From Enterococcus faecalis (GTDB taxonomy: Bacteria; Bacillota; Bacilli; Lactobacillales; Enterococcaceae), in assembly GCA_051295955.1 (NCBI GenBank), contig JBPDWA010000002.1:377174-401173 (forward strand): a stretch of 24,000 bases of DNA. The letters are read 5' to 3'. The translations under genes and the position numbers were made by a program. The notes beneath the pieces are model-generated. The model ran no database searches, was not told where the DNA came from, and saw only the letters and a program-made list of their open reading frames with translations. Positions 6,586-23,056 of the stretch are shown piece after piece; position 1 is the stretch's first letter, and every line of letters starts with the position of its first letter.

Positions 6586-6633
6586 TCTAATTATTTTTCA
6601 AAAAATTTAACAACTTTTTGAAAAATAATTAGA
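6586..6633 (-). terminator. Perfect 19-bp AT-rich inverted repeat (tctaattatttttcaaaaa / tttttgaaaaataattaga, 10-nt loop). Possibly the terminator of the pentapeptide/FUSC operon, possibly an operator.
   Basis: Read directly: arms 6586-6604 and 6615-6633. It lies 12 nt downstream of the pentapeptide-gene stop and ~280 nt upstream of the mvk start. The U-tract on the minus strand is only partial (gctatttta). Confidence 0.4.
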
Positions 6634-8523: not shown

Positions 8524-8552
8524 TTGCTTTTTTGATGTGAAAATTGTAAACT
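8524..8552 (+). promoter_or_regulatory. Putative oppA promoter
   Basis: TTGCTT (8524-8529), 17 nt, TAAACT (8547-8552). An alternative is TTGTAA (8544-8549), 17 nt, TTAATA (8567-8572). The region is AT-rich, so the assignment is tentative. Confidence 0.3.
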
Positions 8553-8564
8553 GTATCTCATAAG

Positions 8565-8604
8565 TATTAATAATTATTAAATTTTAAATTCTTAATTATT
8601 AATA
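8565..8604. promoter_or_regulatory. Operator-like inverted repeat in the oppA promoter/leader
   Basis: tattaataatta (8565-8576) and taattattaata (8593-8604) are exact reverse complements, 16 nt apart. The left arm is embedded in the perfect palindrome ttaataattattaa (8567-8580). Confidence 0.5.
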
Positions 8605-8618
8605 GCTAGTAAATTCTG

Positions 8619-8660: not shown

Positions 8661-10331
8661 ATGAAATTGAAAAAGTCAATTGCATTGGGTTGTGTTACTT
8701 TGTTTAGTCTGACAGCATTAGCTGCATGCGGCGGAAACAACAACTCTGGTAGCAAAAATAAAGCAAGTGAAGGCAAACCGAGTGGAGAACAAGTCTTCCG
8801 TTATACCGAACAACAAGAAATGCCAACAGCCGATTTATCAATGGCAACGGATGAAGTAAGTTTTAACACGTTAAATAATGTTTACGAAGGACTTTACCGC
8901 TTAAATAAAGATAATGAAATTGAACCGGCTGGTGCTGCTGAAAAAGCCGAAATCAGCGAAGACGGTTTAACTTATAAATTTAAATTAAATAAAGATGCGA
9001 AATGGTCAGACGGCAAACCCGTAACTGCCAAAGATTACGTTTACGGCTGGCAACGGACGGTTGACCCTAAAACAGCTTCTGAATATGCGTACTTATTCAG
9101 CCCTGTAAAAAATGCCGATGCTATTAGTAAAGGTGAAAAGGATAAATCTGAATTAGGCATTAAAGCAGTCAGCGACTATGAATTGGAGATTTCCCTTGAT
9201 AAAGCTGCTCCTTATTTTGATTACTTGTTAGCCTCTGTTTCTTTCTTCCCGCAACGTCAGGATATCGTAGAAAAATTTGGCAAAAACTATGCTTCTACTA
9301 GTGATACCGCAGTCTACAATGGACCTTTTGTATTGGCTGATTTTGATGGACCAGGAACAGACACAGAATGGTCTTATAAGAAAAATGATCAATACTGGGA
9401 TAAAAACACTGTAAAACTTGATGAAGTGAAAGTGAACGTGGTAAAAGAATCACCAACAGCTCTAAACTTATTCCAAGATGGTCAAACAGATGATATCAAA
9501 TTAACAGGAGAATTAGCACAACAAATGGCTAACGATCCAGCATTTGTTTCTCAAAAAGAAGCATCAACTCAATATATGGAATTAAATCAACGCGATGAAA
9601 ATTCACCATTTAGAAATGCTAACTTACGGAAAGCAATCGCTTATTCAATTGACCGTAAAGCCTTAGTGGATTCTGTTTTAGGCGACGGTTCCATCGAGCC
9701 CAACGGTTTAGTTCCTGCCAACGTGGCTAAAGACCCAAGCGGTAATAAAGACTTTACAAAAGAAGCGGGCAGTAACATTGGTTTCGATAAGAAAAAAGCC
9801 AAAGAATATTGGGAAAAAGCTAAAAAAGAATTAGGGATCACTACCTTGAAGATGGACATCTTAACTTCTGACGCTGATATTTCTAAGAAAACCGTAGAAT
9901 TCGTCCAAGGAGCGATTCAAGATACTTTGGAAGGGATTAAAGTCACTGTAAGTCCGGTACCATTCTCTGTTCGTTTAGACCGCTCAAACAAAGGTGATTT
10001 CTCTACGGCGATTGGCGGTTGGAGTGCCGACTATGCAGATCCAAGCAGTTTCTTAGACTTGTTTGAATCAACAAATTCATATAACCGTGGCCGTTACAAT
10101 AATCCAGAGTACGATAAGTATATTGAAGCAGCTAGCACAACGAATGTAACTGATCCAGAAAAACGTTGGGATGATATGGTAAATGCTGAGAAAACCATTA
10201 TGGACGACATGGGTGTAATTCCATTGTATCAAAAAGCGGAAGCACACTTACGTTCTGCTAAAGTGAAAGATGTTGCGGTACATCCAGCTGGTGCGAAGTA
10301 TGACTACAAATGGGCTTATATTTCAGAGTAA
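8661..10331 (+). CDS. oppA: Oligopeptide ABC transporter substrate-binding lipoprotein
   Basis: Signal peptide with lipobox LAAC (LTALAACGG), SBP family-5 length and sequence, GGGAGG RBS 8 nt upstream. Confidence 0.93.
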   Translation: MKLKKSIALGCVTLFSLTALAACGGNNNSGSKNKASEGKPSGEQVFRYTEQQEMPTADLSMATDEVSFNTLNNVYEGLYRLNKDNEIEPAGAAEKAEISEDGLTYKFKLNKDAKWSDGKPVTAKDYVYGWQRTVDPKTASEYAYLFSPVKNADAISKGEKDKSELGIKAVSDYELEISLDKAAPYFDYLLASVSFFPQRQDIVEKFGKNYASTSDTAVYNGPFVLADFDGPGTDTEWSYKKNDQYWDKNTVKLDEVKVNVVKESPTALNLFQDGQTDDIKLTGELAQQMANDPAFVSQKEASTQYMELNQRDENSPFRNANLRKAIAYSIDRKALVDSVLGDGSIEPNGLVPANVAKDPSGNKDFTKEAGSNIGFDKKKAKEYWEKAKKELGITTLKMDILTSDADISKKTVEFVQGAIQDTLEGIKVTVSPVPFSVRLDRSNKGDFSTAIGGWSADYADPSSFLDLFESTNSYNRGRYNNPEYDKYIEAASTTNVTDPEKRWDDMVNAEKTIMDDMGVIPLYQKAEAHLRSAKVKDVAVHPAGAKYDYKWAYISE

Positions 10332-10536: not shown

Positions 10537-10887
10537 TTATAAAAAGTAAAATATTAGAAAGACTAAAGATGGAATTAATAAGATGCCTCCGGTTTCCAAC
10601 CAAAAACGGCTATGGTCTTTTCCAATGGTGGAAAGCGGCACAAATTCTTTTGGATCATTTTTTCTTTTAAAGCGTAATGATTGTTTCATAAAGCGCTGGA
10701 AATTATCAAAAAATCCTGAGGACATAATCCACAAGGCGATTCCGATAATTAAAAAGAAAAGTGCTACCAAAAAGAAGGTATCCGATAAAGTGACGATAGA
10801 TAGTTCTTTCTTTCCTAACAACAGGTACAGAAAAATACCAATGGTGGAAATGAAGGCCGTTAATAAAGGCCATTTTCTTTTTTTCAT
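10537..10887 (-). CDS. Small membrane protein (DUF3899-like), antisense to the opp genes
   Basis: 116 aa with three or four hydrophobic helices and a FFDNFQRFMK loop. An AGGATGAG RBS precedes the ATG. It lies between oppA and oppB. Confidence 0.7.
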   Translation of the reverse strand: MKKRKWPLLTAFISTIGIFLYLLLGKKELSIVTLSDTFFLVALFFLIIGIALWIMSSGFFDNFQRFMKQSLRFKRKNDPKEFVPLSTIGKDHSRFWLETGGILLIPSLVFLIFYFL

Positions 10888-10967: not shown

Positions 10968-11918
10968 GTGTCATTTTTGAATAGTTTTGGGAAATATTTT
11001 CTTAAACGGGTCATTTTTATGATTATCACTTTGTGGCTAATTGCGACCATCACATTCTTCTTAATGAAATTACTACCAGGAACTCCTTACACAAATCAAG
11101 AGAAACTTAGTCCCGAAACAATTGCGATGCTTAATAAGCAATCTGGCTTAGATAAACCGGTAATTGTTCAATACGGAATTTATTTGAAAAATTTATTAGT
11201 TGGTGATTTCGGTATTTCCTTCCAATTTAAAAACCAACCGGTGGCTAAACTACTTGCAGGTCGAATTGGACCTTCTTTACAGTTAGGTGGACAAGCAATT
11301 ATCTTTGGTACATTGGTAGGAATCTTGCTGGGAGCTATCGCAGCGATGAAACAAAACACGTGGGTTGACACTACTGCAACGCTCTTAGCCATCTTAGGTC
11401 GTTCTATTCCTAACTTTGTCTTCGCTGTTTTGTTGCAATATATCTTCGCTATGAAATTAGGCATTTTGCCAATTGCTATGTGGAACGGCTTTGCCTATAC
11501 AATTTTACCGACGATCGCACTGGCGATGAGTCCGATGGCAGACTCGGCCCGATTTATTCGCACCGAAATGGTGGAAGTGTTGCATAGTGATTATGTAGAA
11601 TTGGCTAAAGCAAAAGGATTAAGCCGTTGGCAAGTTGCATTTCGCCATGGCCTTAGAAACAGTATGATTCCATTGATTACTTTATTGGGACCTTTGGCTG
11701 TTGGCTTAATGACAGGTTCTTTAGTAGTTGAAAATATTTTTGCGATTCCAGGAATTGGGGAGCAATTTGTAAAATCAATCATGACAAACGACTATCCAAC
11801 AATTATGGCTGTAACCATCTTGTATTCTGCAATGTTAGTAATGGTTATTTTAATTGTTGACTTACTTTACGGCTTAATCGATCCAAGAATTCGTGTTTCA
11901 GGAGGTGTGAAAGGATAA
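10968..11918 (+). CDS. oppB: Oligopeptide ABC transporter permease
   Basis: BPD-transporter permease with an OppB-like N-terminus (KYFLKRVIFMIITLW). The track start at 10968 is a GTG sitting inside the GGAGG RBS. The in-frame TTG at 10977, 8 nt after GGAGG, is the more likely start. Confidence 0.9.
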   Translation: MSFLNSFGKYFLKRVIFMIITLWLIATITFFLMKLLPGTPYTNQEKLSPETIAMLNKQSGLDKPVIVQYGIYLKNLLVGDFGISFQFKNQPVAKLLAGRIGPSLQLGGQAIIFGTLVGILLGAIAAMKQNTWVDTTATLLAILGRSIPNFVFAVLLQYIFAMKLGILPIAMWNGFAYTILPTIALAMSPMADSARFIRTEMVEVLHSDYVELAKAKGLSRWQVAFRHGLRNSMIPLITLLGPLAVGLMTGSLVVENIFAIPGIGEQFVKSIMTNDYPTIMAVTILYSAMLVMVILIVDLLYGLIDPRIRVSGGVKG

Positions 11919-12970
11919 TGGAAACGATCAGTTCAAAAAATTTACCACAAGACATCCAAAATATTCCTGCAGACGCTTTCCAACCTTTAAACACTTCAAC
12001 ACTTGAAGAAAGAGAGCGGATTGCCGCACCTTCACTAAGCTTTCTCCAAGATTCCTGGCGTCGGTTAAAGAAAAATAAAGCCGCTGTTGTTTCTATGGCG
12101 TTCTTAGCGGTGATCATTTTTATTTCAATAATTACGATTTGGGTATCGCCTCATAATCCAACGCAACAAAATGTTTCCTACATTAACTTGCCGCCACGGA
12201 TTCCAGGGCTGGACAGTGTCAACGGCTTAAATGGTAAGACGATGGTAGCAGGACAGCTAGTGGACAAATACGCTCAAGCAAACGTACCAGATAATGTGAA
12301 TTTCTATCTGGGAACAGATGGCTTAGGTCGGGATGTTTTAAGTCGTTTGTTTATGGGAACGAGAATTTCCTTGTTAATTGCTTTTATTGCGGCGATTTTA
12401 GATATTACCATCGGGGTTACTTACGGCTTAATATCAGGCTTGTTTGGCGGTCGTATTGATACCGTTATGCAGCGTATTTTGGAAATTCTTTCTGGAATTC
12501 CTAATTTAGTTATCATGATTTTAATGTTGACAATTTTTGATCCGGGGATTTTATCTATCGTTTTAGCGATGGTTATTACGAACTGGATTTCAATGGCTCG
12601 GATTGTGCGGGCTCAAACATTAAAGCTAAAAGATCAAGAATTTGTCTTGGCCGCTCAAACTCTAGGTGAATCACGTCTGAAGATTGCCTTAAAGCACATT
12701 TTGCCAAATATTTCTAGTGTAATTATTGTACAAATGATGTTTAGTATTCCATCCGCTATTTTCTTTGAAGCGTTCTTAAGCTTTATCGGACTTGGTTTAA
12801 GACCGCCAACCGCTTCTTTGGGAACTTTATTGAATGAAGGCTATAAAACATTCCGTTTCCTTCCTTATTTAATGTGGGTTCCAGCCGCAACCTTATCAGT
12901 GGTAATGATCTGTTTCAACTTGCTGGCTGATGGTCTGCGTGATGCATTTGATCCTAAGATGAAAGAGTAG
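11918..12970 (+). CDS. oppC: Oligopeptide ABC transporter permease
   Basis: OppC-type permease (N-terminal extension, EAA-like loop). Its ATG overlaps the oppB stop (TAATG), and a GGAGGTG RBS lies upstream. Confidence 0.9.
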   Translation: METISSKNLPQDIQNIPADAFQPLNTSTLEERERIAAPSLSFLQDSWRRLKKNKAAVVSMAFLAVIIFISIITIWVSPHNPTQQNVSYINLPPRIPGLDSVNGLNGKTMVAGQLVDKYAQANVPDNVNFYLGTDGLGRDVLSRLFMGTRISLLIAFIAAILDITIGVTYGLISGLFGGRIDTVMQRILEILSGIPNLVIMILMLTIFDPGILSIVLAMVITNWISMARIVRAQTLKLKDQEFVLAAQTLGESRLKIALKHILPNISSVIIVQMMFSIPSAIFFEAFLSFIGLGLRPPTASLGTLLNEGYKTFRFLPYLMWVPAATLSVVMICFNLLADGLRDAFDPKMKE

Positions 12971-12975
12971 AGTGA

Positions 12976-14034
12976 ATGACTATGGAAAAAGTATTAGAAG
13001 TAAAAGACTTAAGAATTTCCTTTGATACATTCGCGGGAAAAGTCAACGCGATTCGCGGCGTTAGCTTTGAACTATTCAAGGGGGAAACCTTGGCAATCGT
13101 AGGTGAATCCGGTAGTGGAAAGTCAGTGACGACCCGAAGTATCATGCGCCTATTAAGTAGCAATGCTACAATTGATAGCGGTGAAATTCTTTTTAAAGGA
13201 CAAGATATTGTCCGCAAAACAGAAAAACAAATGCAAACGATTCGTGGTAAAGAAATTGCGATGATCTTCCAAGATCCGATGACTTCTTTAGACCCGACGA
13301 TGCCAATTGGCAAACAAGTCGCTGAATCTTTAATTAAACACAACAAGGTTTCAAAACAAGAGGGCTTAACTCAAGCATTAGAATTATTGAAATTGGTGGG
13401 TATCCCCAACGCGGAAAAACGTTTGAAAAATTACCCTCATCAATTCTCCGGCGGTCAACGCCAACGGATCGTCATTGCTATTGCACTGATTTGCTATCCG
13501 GAAGTTCTGATCGCTGATGAGCCGACCACCGCTTTGGATGTAACTATTCAAGCTCAAATTTTAGAATTACTGAAAGATCTGCAAGAAAAGATCAGTACCT
13601 CAATCATTTTTATTACCCATGATTTAGGTGTAGTAGCCAATGTTGCTGATCGGGTAGCGGTTATGTACGGTGGGCGCTTAGTGGAAGTAGGAACCGCTGA
13701 AGAAATTTTTTATAATCCGCAACATCCCTATACATGGGGCTTATTAGGTTCTATGCCAACGATGGAAGGAACCGAAGACAAACTTTATGCGATCCCTGGT
13801 TCACCGCCGGATTTACTTGATCCACCAAAAGGTGACGCCTTTTATCCACGGAACGAGTATGCGTTGAAAATTGACGCTGAACAAGAGCCACCGTATTTTG
13901 AAGTTTCACCAACTCATAAGGCTGCAACTTGGCTTTTAGCTCCTCAAGCTCCAAAAGTAACACCTCCGGCTGAAATTGTTCGTCGCTGGGCTATCTATGA
14001 ACAGCGCTATAAAAAGACAGGAGGTGCCAACTAA
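12976..14034 (+). CDS. oppD: Oligopeptide ABC transporter ATP-binding protein
   Basis: Walker A GESGSGKS, signature FSGGQRQR, Walker B LIADEPTTALD, H-loop ITHD, and the OppD/F C-terminal extension. Confidence 0.92.
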   Translation: MTMEKVLEVKDLRISFDTFAGKVNAIRGVSFELFKGETLAIVGESGSGKSVTTRSIMRLLSSNATIDSGEILFKGQDIVRKTEKQMQTIRGKEIAMIFQDPMTSLDPTMPIGKQVAESLIKHNKVSKQEGLTQALELLKLVGIPNAEKRLKNYPHQFSGGQRQRIVIAIALICYPEVLIADEPTTALDVTIQAQILELLKDLQEKISTSIIFITHDLGVVANVADRVAVMYGGRLVEVGTAEEIFYNPQHPYTWGLLGSMPTMEGTEDKLYAIPGSPPDLLDPPKGDAFYPRNEYALKIDAEQEPPYFEVSPTHKAATWLLAPQAPKVTPPAEIVRRWAIYEQRYKKTGGAN

Positions 14035-14996
14035 TGGAAGCAAAGAAAAAAGTTTTACTGGAAGTAAAAGGCTTAAAGCAATATTTCAACGTTGGCCGTA
14101 AAGATGAAGTTAAAGCGGTGGATGACATCAGCTTTCACATTTATGAAGGAGAAACATTTGGGTTAGTTGGCGAGTCCGGTAGCGGAAAATCAACGACAGG
14201 CCGGAGTGTGATCCGCTTATATGATCCTACAGCCGGTGAGATTATTTTTGATGGCAAAGATATCAGCAAAATTCGTGCTAAAAAAGATTTGCAGGAATTT
14301 CGTCGAGAAGTTCAAATGATTTTCCAAGATCCTTACGCATCTTTAAATCCTCGCATGAAAGTTAATGATATTATCGCTGAAGGAATTGATATCAACAAAC
14401 TTGCCAACGATGAAGCACAACGGACTGCTAAAGTAAATGAGCTATTACAAGTGGTCGGACTTGATCCAAGTCACGGCACGCGTTATCCTCATGAATTTTC
14501 CGGCGGTCAACGGCAACGGATTGGCATTGCCCGAGCTCTCGCAGTCGATCCGCGTTTTATCATCTGTGATGAACCGATTTCTGCATTGGATGTTTCGATT
14601 CAAGCGCAAGTAGTTAATTTATTGCAAGACTTACAAAAAAATGTTGGCTTGACCTATTTATTTATTGCTCATGATTTATCAATGGTAAAACATATCAGTG
14701 ACCGAATTGGTGTGATGCATAGTGGTAAATTACTGGAGATGGGCTCAAGTGAAGACGTGTATAGTTTTGGTGTGCATCCTTATACGGAAAGCTTACTTTC
14801 GGCAATTCCGCTGCCTGATCCTGAATACGAACGCAATCGTAAACGGATTATTTATCAAGCACCGGCAGCAGATAATAAAGAACGGAAATTACGTGAAATT
14901 ACACCAGAACATTATGTGTATTGTTCGGAAGATGAGGTAATGATCTACCGTCAAAAAATTGAAGCCAAAAAAGCAGCGGCCCAAGAAAGCTTGTAA
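14034..14996 (+). CDS. oppF: Oligopeptide ABC transporter ATP-binding protein
   Basis: Walker A GESGSGKST, FSGGQRQR, IICDEPISALD, IAHD. Its start overlaps the oppD stop (TAATG), and a GGAGGTG RBS lies upstream. Confidence 0.92.
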   Translation: MEAKKKVLLEVKGLKQYFNVGRKDEVKAVDDISFHIYEGETFGLVGESGSGKSTTGRSVIRLYDPTAGEIIFDGKDISKIRAKKDLQEFRREVQMIFQDPYASLNPRMKVNDIIAEGIDINKLANDEAQRTAKVNELLQVVGLDPSHGTRYPHEFSGGQRQRIGIARALAVDPRFIICDEPISALDVSIQAQVVNLLQDLQKNVGLTYLFIAHDLSMVKHISDRIGVMHSGKLLEMGSSEDVYSFGVHPYTESLLSAIPLPDPEYERNRKRIIYQAPAADNKERKLREITPEHYVYCSEDEVMIYRQKIEAKKAAAQESL

Positions 14997-15006
14997 TCGC
15001 TAAAAA

Positions 15007-15048
15007 AGAGACGGAAACAAAAGCTACATAGCCAATGTTCCTGTCTCT
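15007..15048. terminator. Imperfect hairpin after oppF (weak or leaky terminator on the + strand)
   Basis: agagacggaaac / gttcctgtctct stem with one bulge. The T-run is on the minus-strand side (aaaaaa at 15002-15007), and on the + strand it is followed by aaaaatt. Read-through into the downstream gene therefore looks possible. Confidence 0.35.
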
Positions 15049-15303
15049 AAAAATTATTTCAACGCTAACAGTTGCCATATAAGAAAAGGAACATTTTCGG
15101 TGTTTTGCTTGGCTAGTGCTTCAACTACTGGTGTTAAGAATGAATTCCAACGCAAATCTGTGTTACTGATAGGAGCGTAGCGTTGGCATGAAATAGTTCA
15201 GGCTAGATACTTCTGTTTAAGCTCTTGGTCTTCTCAAAAATGAATGGCAATACGACAGTGATAGAGTGGTTGTTTTAACGATCTTGGTAGGGTGGTTTTG
15301 AAA

Positions 15304-16362
15304 ATGAATATTTTAAGGGCTTATAAGTTTCGACTTTATCCCACCTCAGAGCAGGCGGCGTTTATTCAAAAGTCATTTTCTGCGGTCCGACTGGTGTACA
15401 ATTTGTTGTTACAAGAACGCATTAGAAACTATAAACAGTTAAAAGAAGACCCTGGCGCAACGATTAAAATTCCTACGCCGGCTAAGTACAAAGAACGGTA
15501 TCCTTTTTTGCGAGAAGTAGACAGTTTGGCTTTAGCGAATGCACAAGTATATTTAGATCGTGCCTTTAAAAATTTTTACCGCGGACGCGCAGTGGGGTTT
15601 CCTAAGCTAAAACGCAAAAATACTGTTCATTCATATACGACGAACAATCAACATGGGACTGTTAAGGTTATTGATGGCCGCTATTTAAAAGTTCCCAAAT
15701 TAAAGACGCCTATTAAAATAGCAGTCCATCGACCGTTACAAGGCGAAATTAAGTCAGTGACGATTTCCGTAAGCTCTAGTGGCAAGTATTTTGTGGCGAT
15801 TTTATGTGAAGAAAACGTGACGGCAAAACTTAAAACTGAAAAGGTAACTGGAATTTATCCTAGTCATCAAGCTTTTGCTGAACTAGCTTCAGGAGAACTG
15901 TTAGACAGTCATCATTCTCATCGATGGCAGCAACGGTTAACAGTTGAAGAGGCTAAATTGCGTCGGCGCAAGCAACTGGCTAACAAAAAAGGTAGGGACC
16001 TTGCTTATTGTAAAAATTATCAAAAACAAAAGAAAAAAGTGGCCACTATTCGTGAAAAATTGTTGAATCAACGTTTGGATTTCTTAAATAAGGTGACCAC
16101 TTCCTTGATTACAGATTACGATATAATCTGTATTGATGATTTGGAACAAAATAAGTTGGAAGCCAAATCAGCTTGTAAACAACAATTGCTGGATTTTTCA
16201 TGGCCATTATTTATTGCCAAATTGGAATATAAAGCATTATGGTATGGTAAAAAAGTGATTCGCCTTTCTGCGTGTGAAAGTACCTTAGCTACGCAATTTC
16301 GTCATCTTGACAAAGCTGGTATCCAACAATTTTTAACTCAGCAAGCTGCCGACGCTGAATAG
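15304..16362 (+). CDS. tldR: TnpB-family (IS200/IS605 OrfB-like) protein, catalytically dead and C-terminally truncated: TldR-like RNA-guided repressor candidate
   Basis: The N-terminus MNILRAYKFRLYPT, WED/REC-like middle and ...FIAKLEYKALWYGKKVI are collinear with ISDra2 TnpB, aligned from memory. The RuvC-I GxDxG motif is GIYPS (Tyr codon 15856-15858). The RuvC-II Glu position is Asp (IDDL, 16135-16137). The CxxC...CxxC zinc ribbon and the RuvC-III DRD motif are absent. No tnpA is present. The ATG at 15304 is preferred over the GTG at 15292. Confidence 0.75.
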   Translation: MNILRAYKFRLYPTSEQAAFIQKSFSAVRLVYNLLLQERIRNYKQLKEDPGATIKIPTPAKYKERYPFLREVDSLALANAQVYLDRAFKNFYRGRAVGFPKLKRKNTVHSYTTNNQHGTVKVIDGRYLKVPKLKTPIKIAVHRPLQGEIKSVTISVSSSGKYFVAILCEENVTAKLKTEKVTGIYPSHQAFAELASGELLDSHHSHRWQQRLTVEEAKLRRRKQLANKKGRDLAYCKNYQKQKKKVATIREKLLNQRLDFLNKVTTSLITDYDIICIDDLEQNKLEAKSACKQQLLDFSWPLFIAKLEYKALWYGKKVIRLSACESTLATQFRHLDKAGIQQFLTQQAADAE

Positions 16363-16507
16363 GAGAAACGCTCCGTTTTTTATGAACTGTAGGGACGACA
16401 GGGATAGCCTAGGGGATAAAAGAAGATCGGTTGATAGCTTCTGTTTCTAGGAAGTTTCCATCGCTTGATGGAAATGGTTCACTAATTATTTTTTAATATG
16501 CTTATAC
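16363..16507 (+). ncRNA. Putative TldR/TnpB guide RNA (omega-RNA-like scaffold 3' part plus guide). The 5' boundary may lie inside the ORF 3' end.
   Basis: Nested helices are present: cctag (16409-16413) / ctagg (16448-16452) enclose agaag...cttct. A perfect 8-bp hairpin follows: tttccatc (16455-16462), gctt, gatggaaa (16467-16474). Next comes tggttcac (16475-16482), then the AT-rich segment taattattttttaatatgcttatac (16483-16507) immediately before a terminator. Confidence 0.55.
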
Positions 16508-16560
16508 AGGACCTTTTGTAGGCGTGTCGTAACCGACAACAAGAGCAAAAGGTCTTTTTA
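16508..16560 (+). terminator. Intrinsic terminator ending the tldR/guide-RNA transcription unit
   Basis: gaccttttg (16510-16518) / caaaaggtc (16546-16554) stem with an inner tgtcg/cgaca helix, followed by ttttt (16555-16559). Confidence 0.75.
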
Positions 16561-16608: not shown

Positions 16609-16623
16609 ATGAAAGCGTTGACT
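16609..16623 (+). promoter_or_regulatory. cre (CcpA) site overlapping the -35 of the bgl promoter
   Basis: ATGAAAGCGTTGACT fits WTGNAANCGNWNNCW at every constrained position. Confidence 0.6.
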
Positions 16624-16646
16624 ACCATGAAGAAAACGGCTATAAT
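16618..16646 (+). promoter_or_regulatory. Sigma-A promoter of the beta-glucoside operon
   Basis: TTGACT (16618-16623), 17 nt, TATAAT (16641-16646). Confidence 0.8.
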
Positions 16647-16697
16647 ACGTTATGTAAGTAAGAAAAAAAAACAGAGATAGCGCAGTAGTTATTTCTA

Positions 16698-16788
16698 GAG
16701 TTATGTTACTGGTTAGCAGGCAGAACTCAGATAAGTATGAGATGAACCAGCCCATGGTTTATTTGATACTTGTCTGAGTTTTTTTTCT
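16698..16788 (+). promoter_or_regulatory. RAT antiterminator target overlapping an intrinsic terminator (BglG/LicT-type attenuator)
   Basis: gagttatgttactggttagcaggcagaactc resembles the RAT consensus (..TGTTACTG...AGCAGGCAAAAC..). The terminator stem aactcagataagtat (16724-16738) / atacttgtctgagtt (16766-16780) is followed by a T-run. The 3' half of the RAT is the left arm of the terminator. Confidence 0.8.
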
Positions 16789-16800
16789 GGAAAGGAGCAA

Positions 16801-17645
16801 ATGATGAAAATTCGTCAAATATTAAACAATAATATTGCTGTAGTAGATCGGGGAGGACATGAGTCCATTATTTATTCAAAAGGAATCGCATTTAAAAAGA
16901 AAGTTGGCCAACAAATCAACGATTCTGAAATTGAAAAAACCTATGTTTTGGATTCAAAAGATCGCTTAGAGCACTTTAGCTATTTGCTATCTCAATCGGA
17001 TGAAACCGCCATCTCTTTCATTAACGAATTGGTGCAATACGGTGAAAAAAGAATCGGCAAAATAGCAAATGATTATTTATATTTGGCACTGTTGGATCAT
17101 GTAACCTTTGCTTTGGAACGAGCAAGAAAAAATCAATTTGTTCGTAGTCCGTTAGCGTGGGAAGTTAAAAAATTTTATCCCGATTACTTTGCGATCGGCT
17201 TACAAGCACTAACGCGAATGCAAGAAATTTATCAGATTGATTTTCCGGAAGATGAAGCCGTTTCCATTGCCTTACACTTTGTAAATTTACAAGAAAACCA
17301 ATCGCATTTAGATGAGCGTCTTGAGGATATGGAAACGCTACGAGATATTTTGAATATCATTAAATATCACTTTAATGAAGAATTCGATGAATCCAGCATG
17401 AATTACATGCGCCTAGTGACCCATCTACAGTATTTTATCGAACGAATGCGTACGAACAATCCTTATGAGGAAAAAGAATCGCTGTTATTTCAACAAGTAA
17501 AAAGTTTGTATCCGGCAGCTTATGATGCGGTGGAAAAAATTGCGATTTACGTAAAAGGAAGATTTAATCAACATCTTTCCAAGGATGAATACACGTATTT
17601 AATGATTCATATTAATCGTGTGACAGAAAGGATGAACGAAGAAAC

Positions 17646-17649
<4 letters not shown>
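16801..17649 (+). CDS. licT: BglG/LicT-family transcription antiterminator (CAT + two PRD domains)
   Basis: MKIRQILNNNIAVV N-terminus (CAT RNA-binding domain) with PRD-like repeats. It sits downstream of the RAT/terminator. The second ATG at 16804 has better spacing to AAAGGAG. Confidence 0.9.
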
Positions 17650-20955
<3,306 letters not shown>

Positions 20956-22534: not shown

Positions 22535-23056
22535 ATGAATAAGAAAAAAATAGGAGTAATGATATTCATTATTGTAGTACTGATAGGAATAGGAGGAAAA
22601 CTTTCTATGGACAAAAGAGCCAAGGATTTAGCAGAATTACATGAGATTCAGACCGATTTAGCTAATTACTTGTATAACAATTATAGAATTTACACTGTAG
22701 ATAAAGAGAAGGATGAGCAATTAAACACGGAGTACGATAGAGGAAAGGGATCTTTAACGACTAAAGAATTTCTAAAAAAATCAGATGAATTAAAAGAATA
22801 TTCGGATATAAGCAAAATAGAATTTACCGGTTTTTCTGTCGGACCGATGAATACGTTAGAGGCTTATTTGAAAATTAACGATGTTTACGAAGAAGAAGTA
22901 GACTTGGATACATTGTCAGCAGAAACAAACACGTTTATTTATCGCATTACAGATAGTACAGGTAAAGGGCCTTACTATATAGAGAAAAAAAGGAAGCCTA
23001 TAGACTCAGCTATTCCTGAAGCTGCAATTATTTATTACGAAGGAGGAATAGATTAG
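22535..23056 (+). CDS. Small N-terminally membrane-anchored protein (DUF1433-like), paralog 2. Candidate immunity protein.
   Basis: AAGGAGGGG RBS and an N-terminal TM. Its stop TAG overlaps the GTG start of the downstream lipase-like ORF by 1 nt. Confidence 0.75.
   Translation: MNKKKIGVMIFIIVVLIGIGGKLSMDKRAKDLAELHEIQTDLANYLYNNYRIYTVDKEKDEQLNTEYDRGKGSLTTKEFLKKSDELKEYSDISKIEFTGFSVGPMNTLEAYLKINDVYEEEVDLDTLSAETNTFIYRITDSTGKGPYYIEKKRKPIDSAIPEAAIIYYEGGID

What the first reader, a model, noticed from the sequence alone, without database searches (positions are those of the whole stretch)
16363..16560. Guide-RNA-like unit downstream of the dead TnpB: scaffold made from the former 3' coding region, an AT-rich guide slot, then a terminator
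**Seen in the sequence.** The 120 nt after the stop fold into nested helices and a perfect 8-bp terminal hairpin (16455-16474), followed by tggttcac. This is the layout of an IS605 right end / omega-RNA 3' end.

Next comes a 25-nt unstructured AT-rich segment, TAATTATTTTTTAATATGCTTATAC (16483-16507). A strong intrinsic terminator (16508-16560) closes the unit.

A shifted frame across 16382-16405 reads MNCRDDRD. This looks like a relic of the TnpB second zinc-finger Cys pair plus the RuvC-III DRD motif.

**Inference.** The ancestral tnpB 3' end was kept as RNA scaffold while its coding function was lost. The guide would start at about 16482-16483.
Basis: partly seen in the sequence, partly recalled or inferred. 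Interest (0 to 1): 0.8.

Follow-up and report, generated by a model that had tools for sequence, protein, structure and literature searches.

The report
Guide RNA of oppF-associated TldR repressor
The RNA-like unit after the dead TnpB gene is the guide RNA of an already published system, an oppF-linked, nuclease-dead TnpB ("TldR") that uses a very short guide to sit on the leader of the neighbouring oppA gene. It is real but not new.

Summary
The described sequence features are present at the stated coordinates.

- **Scaffold.** A covariance model built only from the right ends of 16 active IS200/IS605 TnpB elements hits the window once, at 16385-16482 (44 bits, E about 5e-11). The hit ends exactly at ...GGTTCAC.
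- **Structure.** Thirteen orthologous loci show compensatory base changes in the stems.
- **Guide.** TAATTAT after the junction is invariant, positions 8-9 are nearly so, and conservation then collapses. A terminator follows in the window and in all 10 orthologues examined.
- **Target.** The guide's first 8 nt, preceded by the TAM TTTAA, occur once in the window (8569-8581, minus strand). This lies in the oppA leader of the same operon, and the same site is present in 9/9 loci examined.
- **Protein.** It has D185Y and E278D in RuvC, lacks the zinc finger, keeps the published TAM-reading residues, and has no tnpA.

This is the oppF-associated TldR-gRNA system of Wiegand et al. and Xiao et al., here in a divergent orthologue (≤61% aa identity).

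- The scaffold was never coding. Its 5' hairpin, which gives the 'MNCRDDRD' reading, lies 11-17 nt after the stop codon in active relatives.
- The scaffold is 98 nt, not 120.
- Only about 8-9 nt of the 25-nt AT-rich stretch act as guide.

Interest is low.

The parts
8524..8552 (+). Putative oppA promoter: -35 TTGCTT (8524-8529), 17-nt spacer, -10 TAAACT (8547-8552)
   Evidence: Hexamers and spacing are conserved at the same place in 9 orthologous oppA leaders. The simple consensus scan did not flag it. Inferred, not shown.
8569..8581 (-). Predicted TldR target: TAM 5'-TTTAA (8581-8577) followed by TAATTATT (8576-8569), matching guide positions 1-8. Core of the palindrome TTAATAATTATTAA (8567-8580).
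   Evidence: Only exact match in the window; 0.02 expected by chance. The same TAM+seed site is present upstream of oppA in 9/9 orthologous loci. It lies 80 nt upstream of the oppA ATG and about +10 to +22 from the inferred transcription start.
8582..8612 (+). 31-nt insertion in the oppA leader, specific to this lineage, carrying a second TAATTATT (non-canonical TAM context)
   Evidence: Absent from L001-L007 and L087, where the target is followed directly by TTCTGATTTTTCAGAAAA.
8661..10331 (+). oppA (substrate-binding protein, SBP_bac_5), the predicted regulated gene
   Evidence: Pfam PF00496, E 2e-81
10537..10887 (-). Antisense DUF3899 gene interrupting the operon, as in E. faecalis V583
   Evidence: Pfam PF13038; described for V583 in Xiao et al.
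10968..14996 (+). oppB (10968-11918), oppC (11918-12970), oppD (12976-14034), oppF (14034-14996)
   Evidence: Pfam BPD_transp_1, OppC_N, ABC_tran, oligo_HPY
15304..16362 (+). tldR: 352-aa TnpB-like nuclease-dead protein (D185Y, E278D, zinc finger absent)
   Evidence: Pfam HTH_OrfB_IS605 + OrfB_IS605, no PF07282. Alignments to TldRs and active TnpBs. TAM-reading residues S74 L75 N79 Q81 V82 N114 Q116 retained.
16363..16384 (+). Non-conserved linker between the stop codon and the scaffold; contains a small hairpin plus T6
   Evidence: Outside the covariance-model hit; not conserved in orthologues; local fold z = -3.5. Function unknown.
16385..16482 (+). gRNA scaffold (98 nt): 5' hairpin 16387-16401; stem 16408-16414/16445-16451; inner stem 16421-16426/16437-16442; 3' hairpin 16454-16462/16467-16475; conserved GGTTCAC 16476-16482
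   Evidence: TnpB-derived model R1: 44.1 bits, E about 5e-11, full length. Covariation. Rfam RF02841 Ref70: 65.4 bits, E 8e-12 over 16381-16494.
16483..16491 (+). Guide TAATTATTT. Positions 1-7 are invariant in 13 orthologues and 1-8 match the oppA-leader target.
   Evidence: Guide lengths of 9-11 nt were measured in E. faecalis orthologues.
16492..16507 (+). Non-conserved AT-rich spacer between guide and terminator
   Evidence: Column identity falls to about 0.55 after guide position 9; unstructured.
16508..16559 (+). Intrinsic terminator (hairpin 16508-16554, T5 16555-16559)
   Evidence: -20.8 kcal/mol, z = -4.5. A hairpin plus T-run follows the guide in all 10 orthologues examined. A 'predicted gRNA terminator' is mentioned for V583.

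Best explanation
Window 16385-16491 encodes the guide RNA of an oppF-associated TldR, a TnpB-like nuclease-dead repressor. The proposed mechanism, step by step:

1. The RNA is transcribed with or just after tldR (15304-16362) and ends at the terminator (16508-16559).
2. It is trimmed to a scaffold of about 98 nt plus a guide of about 9-11 nt. This step is inferred from the E. faecalis orthologue.
3. The TldR-gRNA complex reads the TAM 5'-TTTAA and pairs the guide's first 8 nt (UAAUUAUU) with the oppA leader at 8569-8581, just downstream of the inferred oppA promoter.
4. Having no nuclease activity (D185Y, E278D, no zinc finger), it stays bound and blocks RNA polymerase. This lowers oppA expression without shutting off oppBCDF.

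**Shown here:**
- homology of the RNA to TnpB omega-RNA
- covariation in its stems
- the fixed guide
- the unique, conserved TAM+target site
- the degenerate RuvC motifs
- the conserved TAM-reading residues
- the absence of tnpA

**Inferred from published orthologues:**
- RNA binding
- trimming
- repression
For: **RNA homology and structure**
- A model built only from active TnpB right ends hits 16385-16482 and the same position in 11 orthologous TldR loci.
- Stems show compensatory changes; all 5 aligned pairs of the 3' hairpin covary.

**Junction and guide**
- In active TnpBs the sequence after ...AGTTCAC differs in every copy.
- In TldR loci TAATTAT is invariant and divergence begins after position 9.

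**Target**
- TTTAA+TAATTATT is unique in the window (0.02 expected) and lies in the oppA leader.
- The same site occurs in 9/9 loci examined.

**Protein and context**
- Pfam domains, D185Y and E278D, no zinc ribbon.
- TAM-contact residues are conserved.
- The context oppA-DUF3899-oppBCDF-tldR is as published.
- There is no tnpA and no left-end similarity, whereas active relatives carry a Y1 transposase.

**Published biology of the orthologue**
- RIP-seq and RNA-seq boundaries, TAM TTTAA, and a 97-nt scaffold with 9-nt guide in cryo-EM.
- About 40-fold oppA repression on overexpression in E. faecalis V583.

**Rfam**
- Rfam Ref70, an Enterococcus sRNA family, matches the E. faecalis-type locus above threshold. 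It matches the window at E 8e-12.
Against: - No expression, binding or repression data exist for this organism.
- Guide-target pairing is only 8 contiguous bp. Position 9 mismatches here (guide T, target A). It also mismatches in the other species examined (guide A, target T).
- In V583, deleting tldR-gRNA caused no oppA de-repression under standard culture conditions, so the physiological strength of the effect is unclear.
- The 5' hairpin carries one A/G mismatch in the window.
- Scaffold folding energy alone is unremarkable.
Confidence: 0.88

Rival explanations
1. An inert fossil: a decaying IS200/IS605 insertion whose tnpB pseudogene and right end persist without function.
For: The protein has lost catalytic residues and the zinc finger. 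The RNA is homologous to a transposon right end. Deletion in V583 gave no phenotype under standard conditions.
Against: - The ORF is intact in 13 or more species at a syntenic position, despite identity of only about 50-60%.
- RNA stems keep pairing through compensatory changes.
- The guide is invariant and matches a conserved TAM-flanked site in the adjacent operon in every locus.
- TAM-reading residues are conserved.
Confidence: 0.04
2. An active or recently active TnpB/omega-RNA homing element whose guide reflects the flanking insertion site.
For: The scaffold ends in the same ...GTTCAC as active elements, and the TAM family is the same.
Against: - There is no tnpA and no left end.
- RuvC residues D185Y and E278D are substituted and the zinc finger is lost.
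- The locus is single-copy in the window.
- The guide is identical across species that have different downstream genes (bgl operon or infC), so it does not track the flank.
Confidence: 0.02
3. A conventional trans-acting base-pairing sRNA (as the Rfam name 'Enterococcus sRNA 70' suggests), or simply a structured 3' UTR and terminator region of tldR, acting on RNA rather than guiding a protein to DNA.
For: Rfam lists the family only as an sRNA gene. An 11-nt stretch of the guide region, TAATTATTTTT, also occurs in both arms of an inverted repeat at 6587-6632.
Against: - The RNA is homologous to TnpB omega-RNA.
- The orthologous RNA is bound by TldR in RIP-seq and cryo-EM.
- The conserved match is TAM-flanked DNA.
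- The 6587-6632 sites lack a TAM, and a single extra 11-mer event is not significant.
Confidence: 0.05

Closest known systems
oppF-associated TldR-gRNA of Enterococcus faecalis (Efa1TldR / V583); Wiegand et al. bioRxiv 10.1101/2023.11.30.569447, Xiao et al. bioRxiv 10.64898/2026.09.22.753285
   Same: - Same operon layout: oppA, antisense DUF3899, oppBCDF, tldR, gRNA, terminator.
- Scaffold of about 97-100 nt ending in CAC.
- Same guide seed TAATTATT and same TAM TTTAA.
- Same target position in the oppA leader, downstream of the -10 element.
- Same TAM-contact residues.
- RuvC first residue substituted and zinc finger lost.
   Different: - The protein is only 57% identical to the E. faecalis-type cluster (P0014) and at most 61% to any database protein.
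- Guide position 9 is T rather than A, and target position 9 is A rather than T.
- The oppA leader has a 31-nt insertion with a second seed copy.
- A bgl operon lies between the gRNA and infC.
- Stem 2 is a longer 9-bp hairpin.
IS200/IS605 TnpB omega-RNA (reRNA) of active relatives in E. cecorum, E. columbae and others; architecture as in ISDra2
   Same: - Homologous scaffold, shown by the covariance-model hit.
- Same 5' hairpin and same ...AGTTCAC junction.
- Guide immediately 3' of the scaffold, and the same TAM family.
   Different: - Active elements have tnpA, an intact DED triad and zinc finger, and a 146-nt scaffold.
- Their guides differ at every copy.
- Here the scaffold is shortened to 98 nt, the guide is fixed, and the protein is nuclease-dead and immobile.
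Rfam RF02841 Ref70 (Enterococcus sRNA 70)
   Same: Full-length alignment (model positions 1-122) to window 16381-16494. The E. faecalis-type locus scores above the gathering threshold.
   Different: The window scores 65.4 bits, below the gathering score of 115. Rfam describes the family only as an sRNA, with no link to TldR in its name.
fliC_P-associated TldR of Enterobacter prophages; dCas9/dCas12 CRISPRi
   Same: A nuclease-dead RNA-guided DNA binder that represses transcription by occupying a promoter or leader.
   Different: They differ in clade, TAM (GTTAT), guide length (16 nt), target gene and genomic context. CRISPRi is an engineered system.

Membership tests
oppF-associated TldR-gRNA system | TnpB-homologous protein (HTH + RuvC-like OrfB_IS605 core) | tested here: met
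   PF12323 E 7e-18 and PF01385 E 4e-8. 47-49% identity to active TnpBs and 50-61% to Enterococcus TldR-like proteins.
oppF-associated TldR-gRNA system | RuvC DED triad disrupted and C-terminal zinc finger lost | tested here: met
   IGIDLG becomes GIYPS (D185Y), ICIEDL becomes ICIDDL (E278D), and the CxxC...CxxC segment and PF07282 are absent. The status of the third Asp is ambiguous. Lack of nuclease activity itself is not testable here.
oppF-associated TldR-gRNA system | Encoded directly downstream of oppF of an oppA...oppBCDF operon, without tnpA or transposon ends | tested here: met
   Gene order and Pfam. No similarity of 14997-15310 to TnpA or left-end regions of active elements. No Y1_Tnp among the called genes.
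oppF-associated TldR-gRNA system | gRNA scaffold downstream of tldR, detectable with a model built from related TnpB omega-RNAs | tested here: met
   R1 (16 TnpB right ends) hits 16385-16482 at 44.1 bits, E about 5e-11. It is the only hit in the window.
oppF-associated TldR-gRNA system | Short conserved guide matching a TTTAA-flanked site upstream of oppA, with an intact 6-nt seed | tested here: met
   Guide TAATTATT is conserved. TTTAA+TAATTATT at 8569-8581 is unique in the window and conserved in 9/9 loci. The criteria are those.
oppF-associated TldR-gRNA system | TAM-contact residues (S74, L75, N79, Q81, V82, N114, Q116 in Efa1TldR) | tested here: met
   All are present at the same numbers in the window protein.
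oppF-associated TldR-gRNA system | RNA is expressed, bound by TldR, and represses oppA | not testable with these tools
   Shown only for E. faecalis orthologues.
Active IS200/IS605 TnpB/omega-RNA element | tnpA or left/right ends present, intact DED, guide equal to the flanking insertion site and variable between copies | tested here: not met
   No tnpA or left end. D185Y and E278D. The guide is invariant across species with different flanks, against variable guides in active copies.
Rfam RF02841 Ref70 | Score at or above the curated gathering threshold (115 bits) | tested here: not met
   65.4 bits, E 8e-12, full-length. The E. faecalis-type locus L087 scores 117.6 bits. The window RNA is a divergent homologue outside the curated cut-off.

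The most novel reading that the evidence does not exclude
This divergent lineage may have re-wired the known circuit in two ways.

- The target core is a perfect palindrome (TTAATAATTATTAA), which offers seed matches on both strands.
- A lineage-specific 31-nt insertion in the oppA leader adds a further seed copy. TldR could therefore occupy two or three adjacent sites, or tolerate a relaxed TAM (ATTAA), giving a different repression strength or logic from that in E. faecalis.

A smaller point: the Rfam sRNA family Ref70 is the TldR guide RNA. No paper in the searchable library makes that link.
Probability: 0.1. Interest if true: 0.3.

Novelty: new member of a known kind. Interest (0 to 1): 0.15.

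Why it matters
- It shows that the first-stage reader can recognise a TnpB-type guide RNA, and the scaffold/guide junction to within a base, from raw sequence.
- Biologically it adds a divergent orthologue to a published family. That supports how strictly the 8-nt seed, the TTTAA TAM and the oppA-leader target co-vary across Enterococcus-like genomes.
- It also suggests that only about 8 bp of pairing is conserved in nature.
- No new mechanism is revealed.

Tried and rejected
- **Longer guide matches.** I searched for 9-16-nt matches of 16474-16510 elsewhere in the window. The only longer matches, 11-12 nt, lie in both arms of an AT-rich inverted repeat at 6587-6632. They have no TAM, so I judged them chance or irrelevant.
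- **The 'MNCRDDRD' relic.** Rejected, because the homologous DNA is non-coding in 16 active TnpB loci.
- **Folding-energy significance.** Not informative for the scaffold (z = -0.79). Covariation was used instead.
- **Consensus scans.** They missed both the gRNA terminator (its loop is too long for the rule) and the oppA promoter. These were assessed by folding and by cross-species conservation instead.
- **Origin of Rfam Ref70.** I tried to trace it in two Enterococcus transcriptome papers and did not find it.
- **Species identity.**
  - NCBI labels the identical MAG proteins 'Enterococcus faecalis'.
  - However, the window is only about 70-80% identical in DNA to the E. faecalis-type locus L087 and has different downstream synteny. 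The species stays unresolved.
- **Hairpin versus long-range pairing.** RNAalifold proposed pairing of TAGGGAC with GTTCACTA instead of the local 5' hairpin. Both are compatible with the counts. This may correspond to the published pseudoknot, but I could not decide it here.

Full report
**What is there**

The finding lies immediately after a 352-aa ORF (15304-16362, +).
- The ORF carries the Pfam domains HTH_OrfB_IS605 and OrfB_IS605 but no zinc-ribbon domain.
- It directly follows oppC, oppD and oppF.
- Further upstream are oppB, an antisense DUF3899 gene and oppA.

This is the published layout of oppF-associated TldRs, which are TnpB-like nuclease-dead repressors.

**Checking the observation**

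- The perfect 8-bp hairpin (16455-16462 / 16467-16474), the TGGTTCAC that follows, the unstructured AT-rich 16483-16507 and the shifted-frame reading MNCRDDRD are all literally present.
- The terminator hairpin 16508-16554 plus T5 is far stronger than shuffled sequence (z = -4.5).
- The scaffold's folding energy alone is unremarkable (z = -0.79). Support for it has to come from comparative data.

**Homology of the RNA**

The protein's closest database relatives are Enterococcus TldR-like proteins at 50-61% identity. Active TnpBs that keep the zinc ribbon are 47-49% identical.

I collected three sets of loci:
- orthologous TldR loci: L001-L007 and L080 from genomes, and L087, L088, L090 and L091 from assemblies;
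- many active TnpB loci;
- six near-identical metagenome contigs that share the window's gene context.

In 16 active TnpB loci the right end is a 146-nt element, AACCGTAGGAACTACGG...GAGTAGTTCAC. It begins 11-17 nt after the tnpB stop codon and is followed by a different sequence in every copy.

A covariance model built from these 16 sequences alone hits the window once, at 16385-16482. The hit is full length, scores 44.1 bits and has E of about 5e-11. The model also hits the equivalent position downstream of tldR in 11 orthologues.

**Structure**

I aligned 13 orthologues and counted base pairs.
- A stem at 16408-16414 / 16445-16451, an inner stem at 16421-16426 / 16437-16442, and the 3' hairpin are 95-100% paired.
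- 11-12 pairs carry double changes. None of 500 shuffles reached this, and slid controls give 40-55% paired.
- All five alignable pairs of the 3' hairpin covary, and each species has its own stem sequence.
- The 5' element CTGTAGGGACGACAG (16387-16401) can form a local hairpin. The stem changes T-A to C-G between TldR and TnpB loci.
- Alternatively this element can pair with GTTCAC at the 3' end. That pairing may be the pseudoknot seen in the Efa1TldR cryo-EM structure. I could not decide between the two.

**Scaffold/guide boundary**

- After ...CAC, TAATTAT is invariant.
- Position 8 is T in 11 of 13 sequences.
- Position 9 is A in 12 of 13. The window has T.
- Identity then drops to background, about 0.55.

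However, it is about 8-9 nt long, not 25. This agrees with the 9-11-nt guides measured for E. faecalis. In all 10 orthologues examined a hairpin plus T-run follows roughly 15-25 nt later.

**Target**

- TTTAA+TAATTATT occurs exactly once in the window, at 8569-8581 on the minus strand. The chance expectation is 0.02.
- It lies 80 nt upstream of the oppA start codon.
- The same TAM+seed site is present, on the same strand, in all nine orthologous oppA leaders examined.
- In each it sits just downstream of conserved -35/-10-like hexamers, which in the window are TTGCTT 8524-8529 and TAAACT 8547-8552.
- That places the site at about +10 to +22 of the transcript, as mapped for V583.
- Position 9 mismatches in the window (guide T, target A). 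It also mismatches, reciprocally, in the other species (guide A, target T). Only 8 contiguous base pairs are conserved.

**Protein**

- The RuvC-I Asp is Tyr (D185Y) and the RuvC-II Glu is Asp (E278D).
- The zinc-finger segment is missing from within the C-terminal region.
- The residues that contact the TAM in Efa1TldR (S74, L75, N79, Q81, V82, N114, Q116) are all retained.
- There is no tnpA and no left-end similarity. Active relatives have a Y1 transposase immediately upstream.

- The DNA that reads MNCRDDRD is the scaffold's 5' hairpin. It is non-coding in every active relative, so it is not a relic of the zinc finger or the RuvC-III DRD motif, and the scaffold was not made from former coding sequence.
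- The ancestral C-terminal helix seems instead to survive in frame at the end of the ORF. This alignment is tentative.
- The first 22 nt after the stop codon (16363-16384) are an unconserved linker.

**An Rfam link**

- A permissive Rfam search matches RF02841 'Ref70, Enterococcus sRNA 70' to 16381-16494. The score is 65.4 bits against a gathering score of 115, with E 8e-12.
- The E. faecalis-type locus L087 passes the threshold at 117.6 bits.
- The protein at L087 has the residue numbering of Efa1TldR.
- The TldR guide RNA therefore already exists in Rfam as an sRNA family with no stated function.

**Verdict**

This is a real, well-supported guide-RNA unit and a divergent member of a published system. 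The mechanism is RNA-guided repression of oppA without cleavage. It is inferred here from sequence and shown experimentally only in E. faecalis. Novelty and interest are low.

Noticed in passing
window 16381-16494; L087 11075-11184: Rfam family RF02841 'Ref70 Enterococcus sRNA 70' is the oppF-TldR guide RNA. It scores above threshold on the E. faecalis-type locus and 65 bits on the window. I found no paper in the searchable library that makes this link.
   Followed up: partly
window 8582-8612: A lineage-specific 31-nt insertion in the oppA leader, directly after the TldR target. It contains a second TAATTATT. On the minus strand this reads ATTAA+TAATTA, a non-canonical TAM. It is absent from 8 orthologous leaders.
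   Followed up: partly
window 8567-8580: The target core is a perfect palindrome, TTAATAATTATTAA. The plus strand therefore also offers ATTAA+TAATTATTA. In the other species the plus strand reads ATAAA+TAATTATTA, a 9/9 match to their guide but without a canonical TAM.
   Followed up: no
window 6587-6632: A perfect 19-bp AT-rich inverted repeat (TCTAATTATTTTTCAAAAA ... TTTTTGAAAAATAATTAGA) lies between two minus-strand genes. Both arms contain TAATTATTTTT, identical to 16483-16493, but without a TAM. It is probably a bidirectional terminator and a chance match.
   Followed up: partly
window 16363-16384: A small hairpin followed by T6 (GAGAAACGCTCCGTTTTTT) lies between the tldR stop codon and the scaffold (z = -3.5). 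It is not conserved in orthologues. It might attenuate read-through into the gRNA or might be chance.
   Followed up: no
window 16618-16803 and 16801-20955: A near-consensus promoter (TTGACT-17-TATAAT, 16618-16646) and the Rfam bglG-cis-reg antiterminator target (16667-16803) lead into the licT/bglG, PTS-IIABC and GH1 genes. This bgl operon sits between the gRNA and a 173-aa ORF at 22535-23056. That ORF has the same length as IF3 (infC), but I did not run a domain scan on it. In the E. faecalis-type loci infC follows the gRNA directly.
   Followed up: partly
window 15000-15056: An imperfect hairpin, AGAGACGGAAAC...GTTCCTGTCTCT, lies just after oppF. It has an A-run before it and a weak T-rich tail after it. 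It may be a partial or bidirectional terminator, which would fit the lower tldR expression relative to the operon reported for V583.
   Followed up: no
whole window; proteins MGK0551007.1 etc.: NCBI labels the identical MAG-derived proteins 'Enterococcus faecalis'. However, the locus is only about 70-80% identical in DNA to the E. faecalis-type locus L087, and its TldR is 57% identical. The label looks wrong, or the MAG represents a different species.
   Followed up: partly
L001 9680-10000; L004 9680-10000: The oppF-tldR intergenic region of E. sp. UD-01 and E. ureasiticus holds about three tandem copies of a unit of about 100 nt. These are absent from the window.
   Followed up: no
L011 10001-11200: One tnpB copy in E. 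cecorum DSM 20682 has a premature stop (…KVDK*). The zinc-finger and RuvC-III coding sequence continues out of frame. This looks like an early-stage tnpB pseudogene, distinct from the TldR clade.
   Followed up: no
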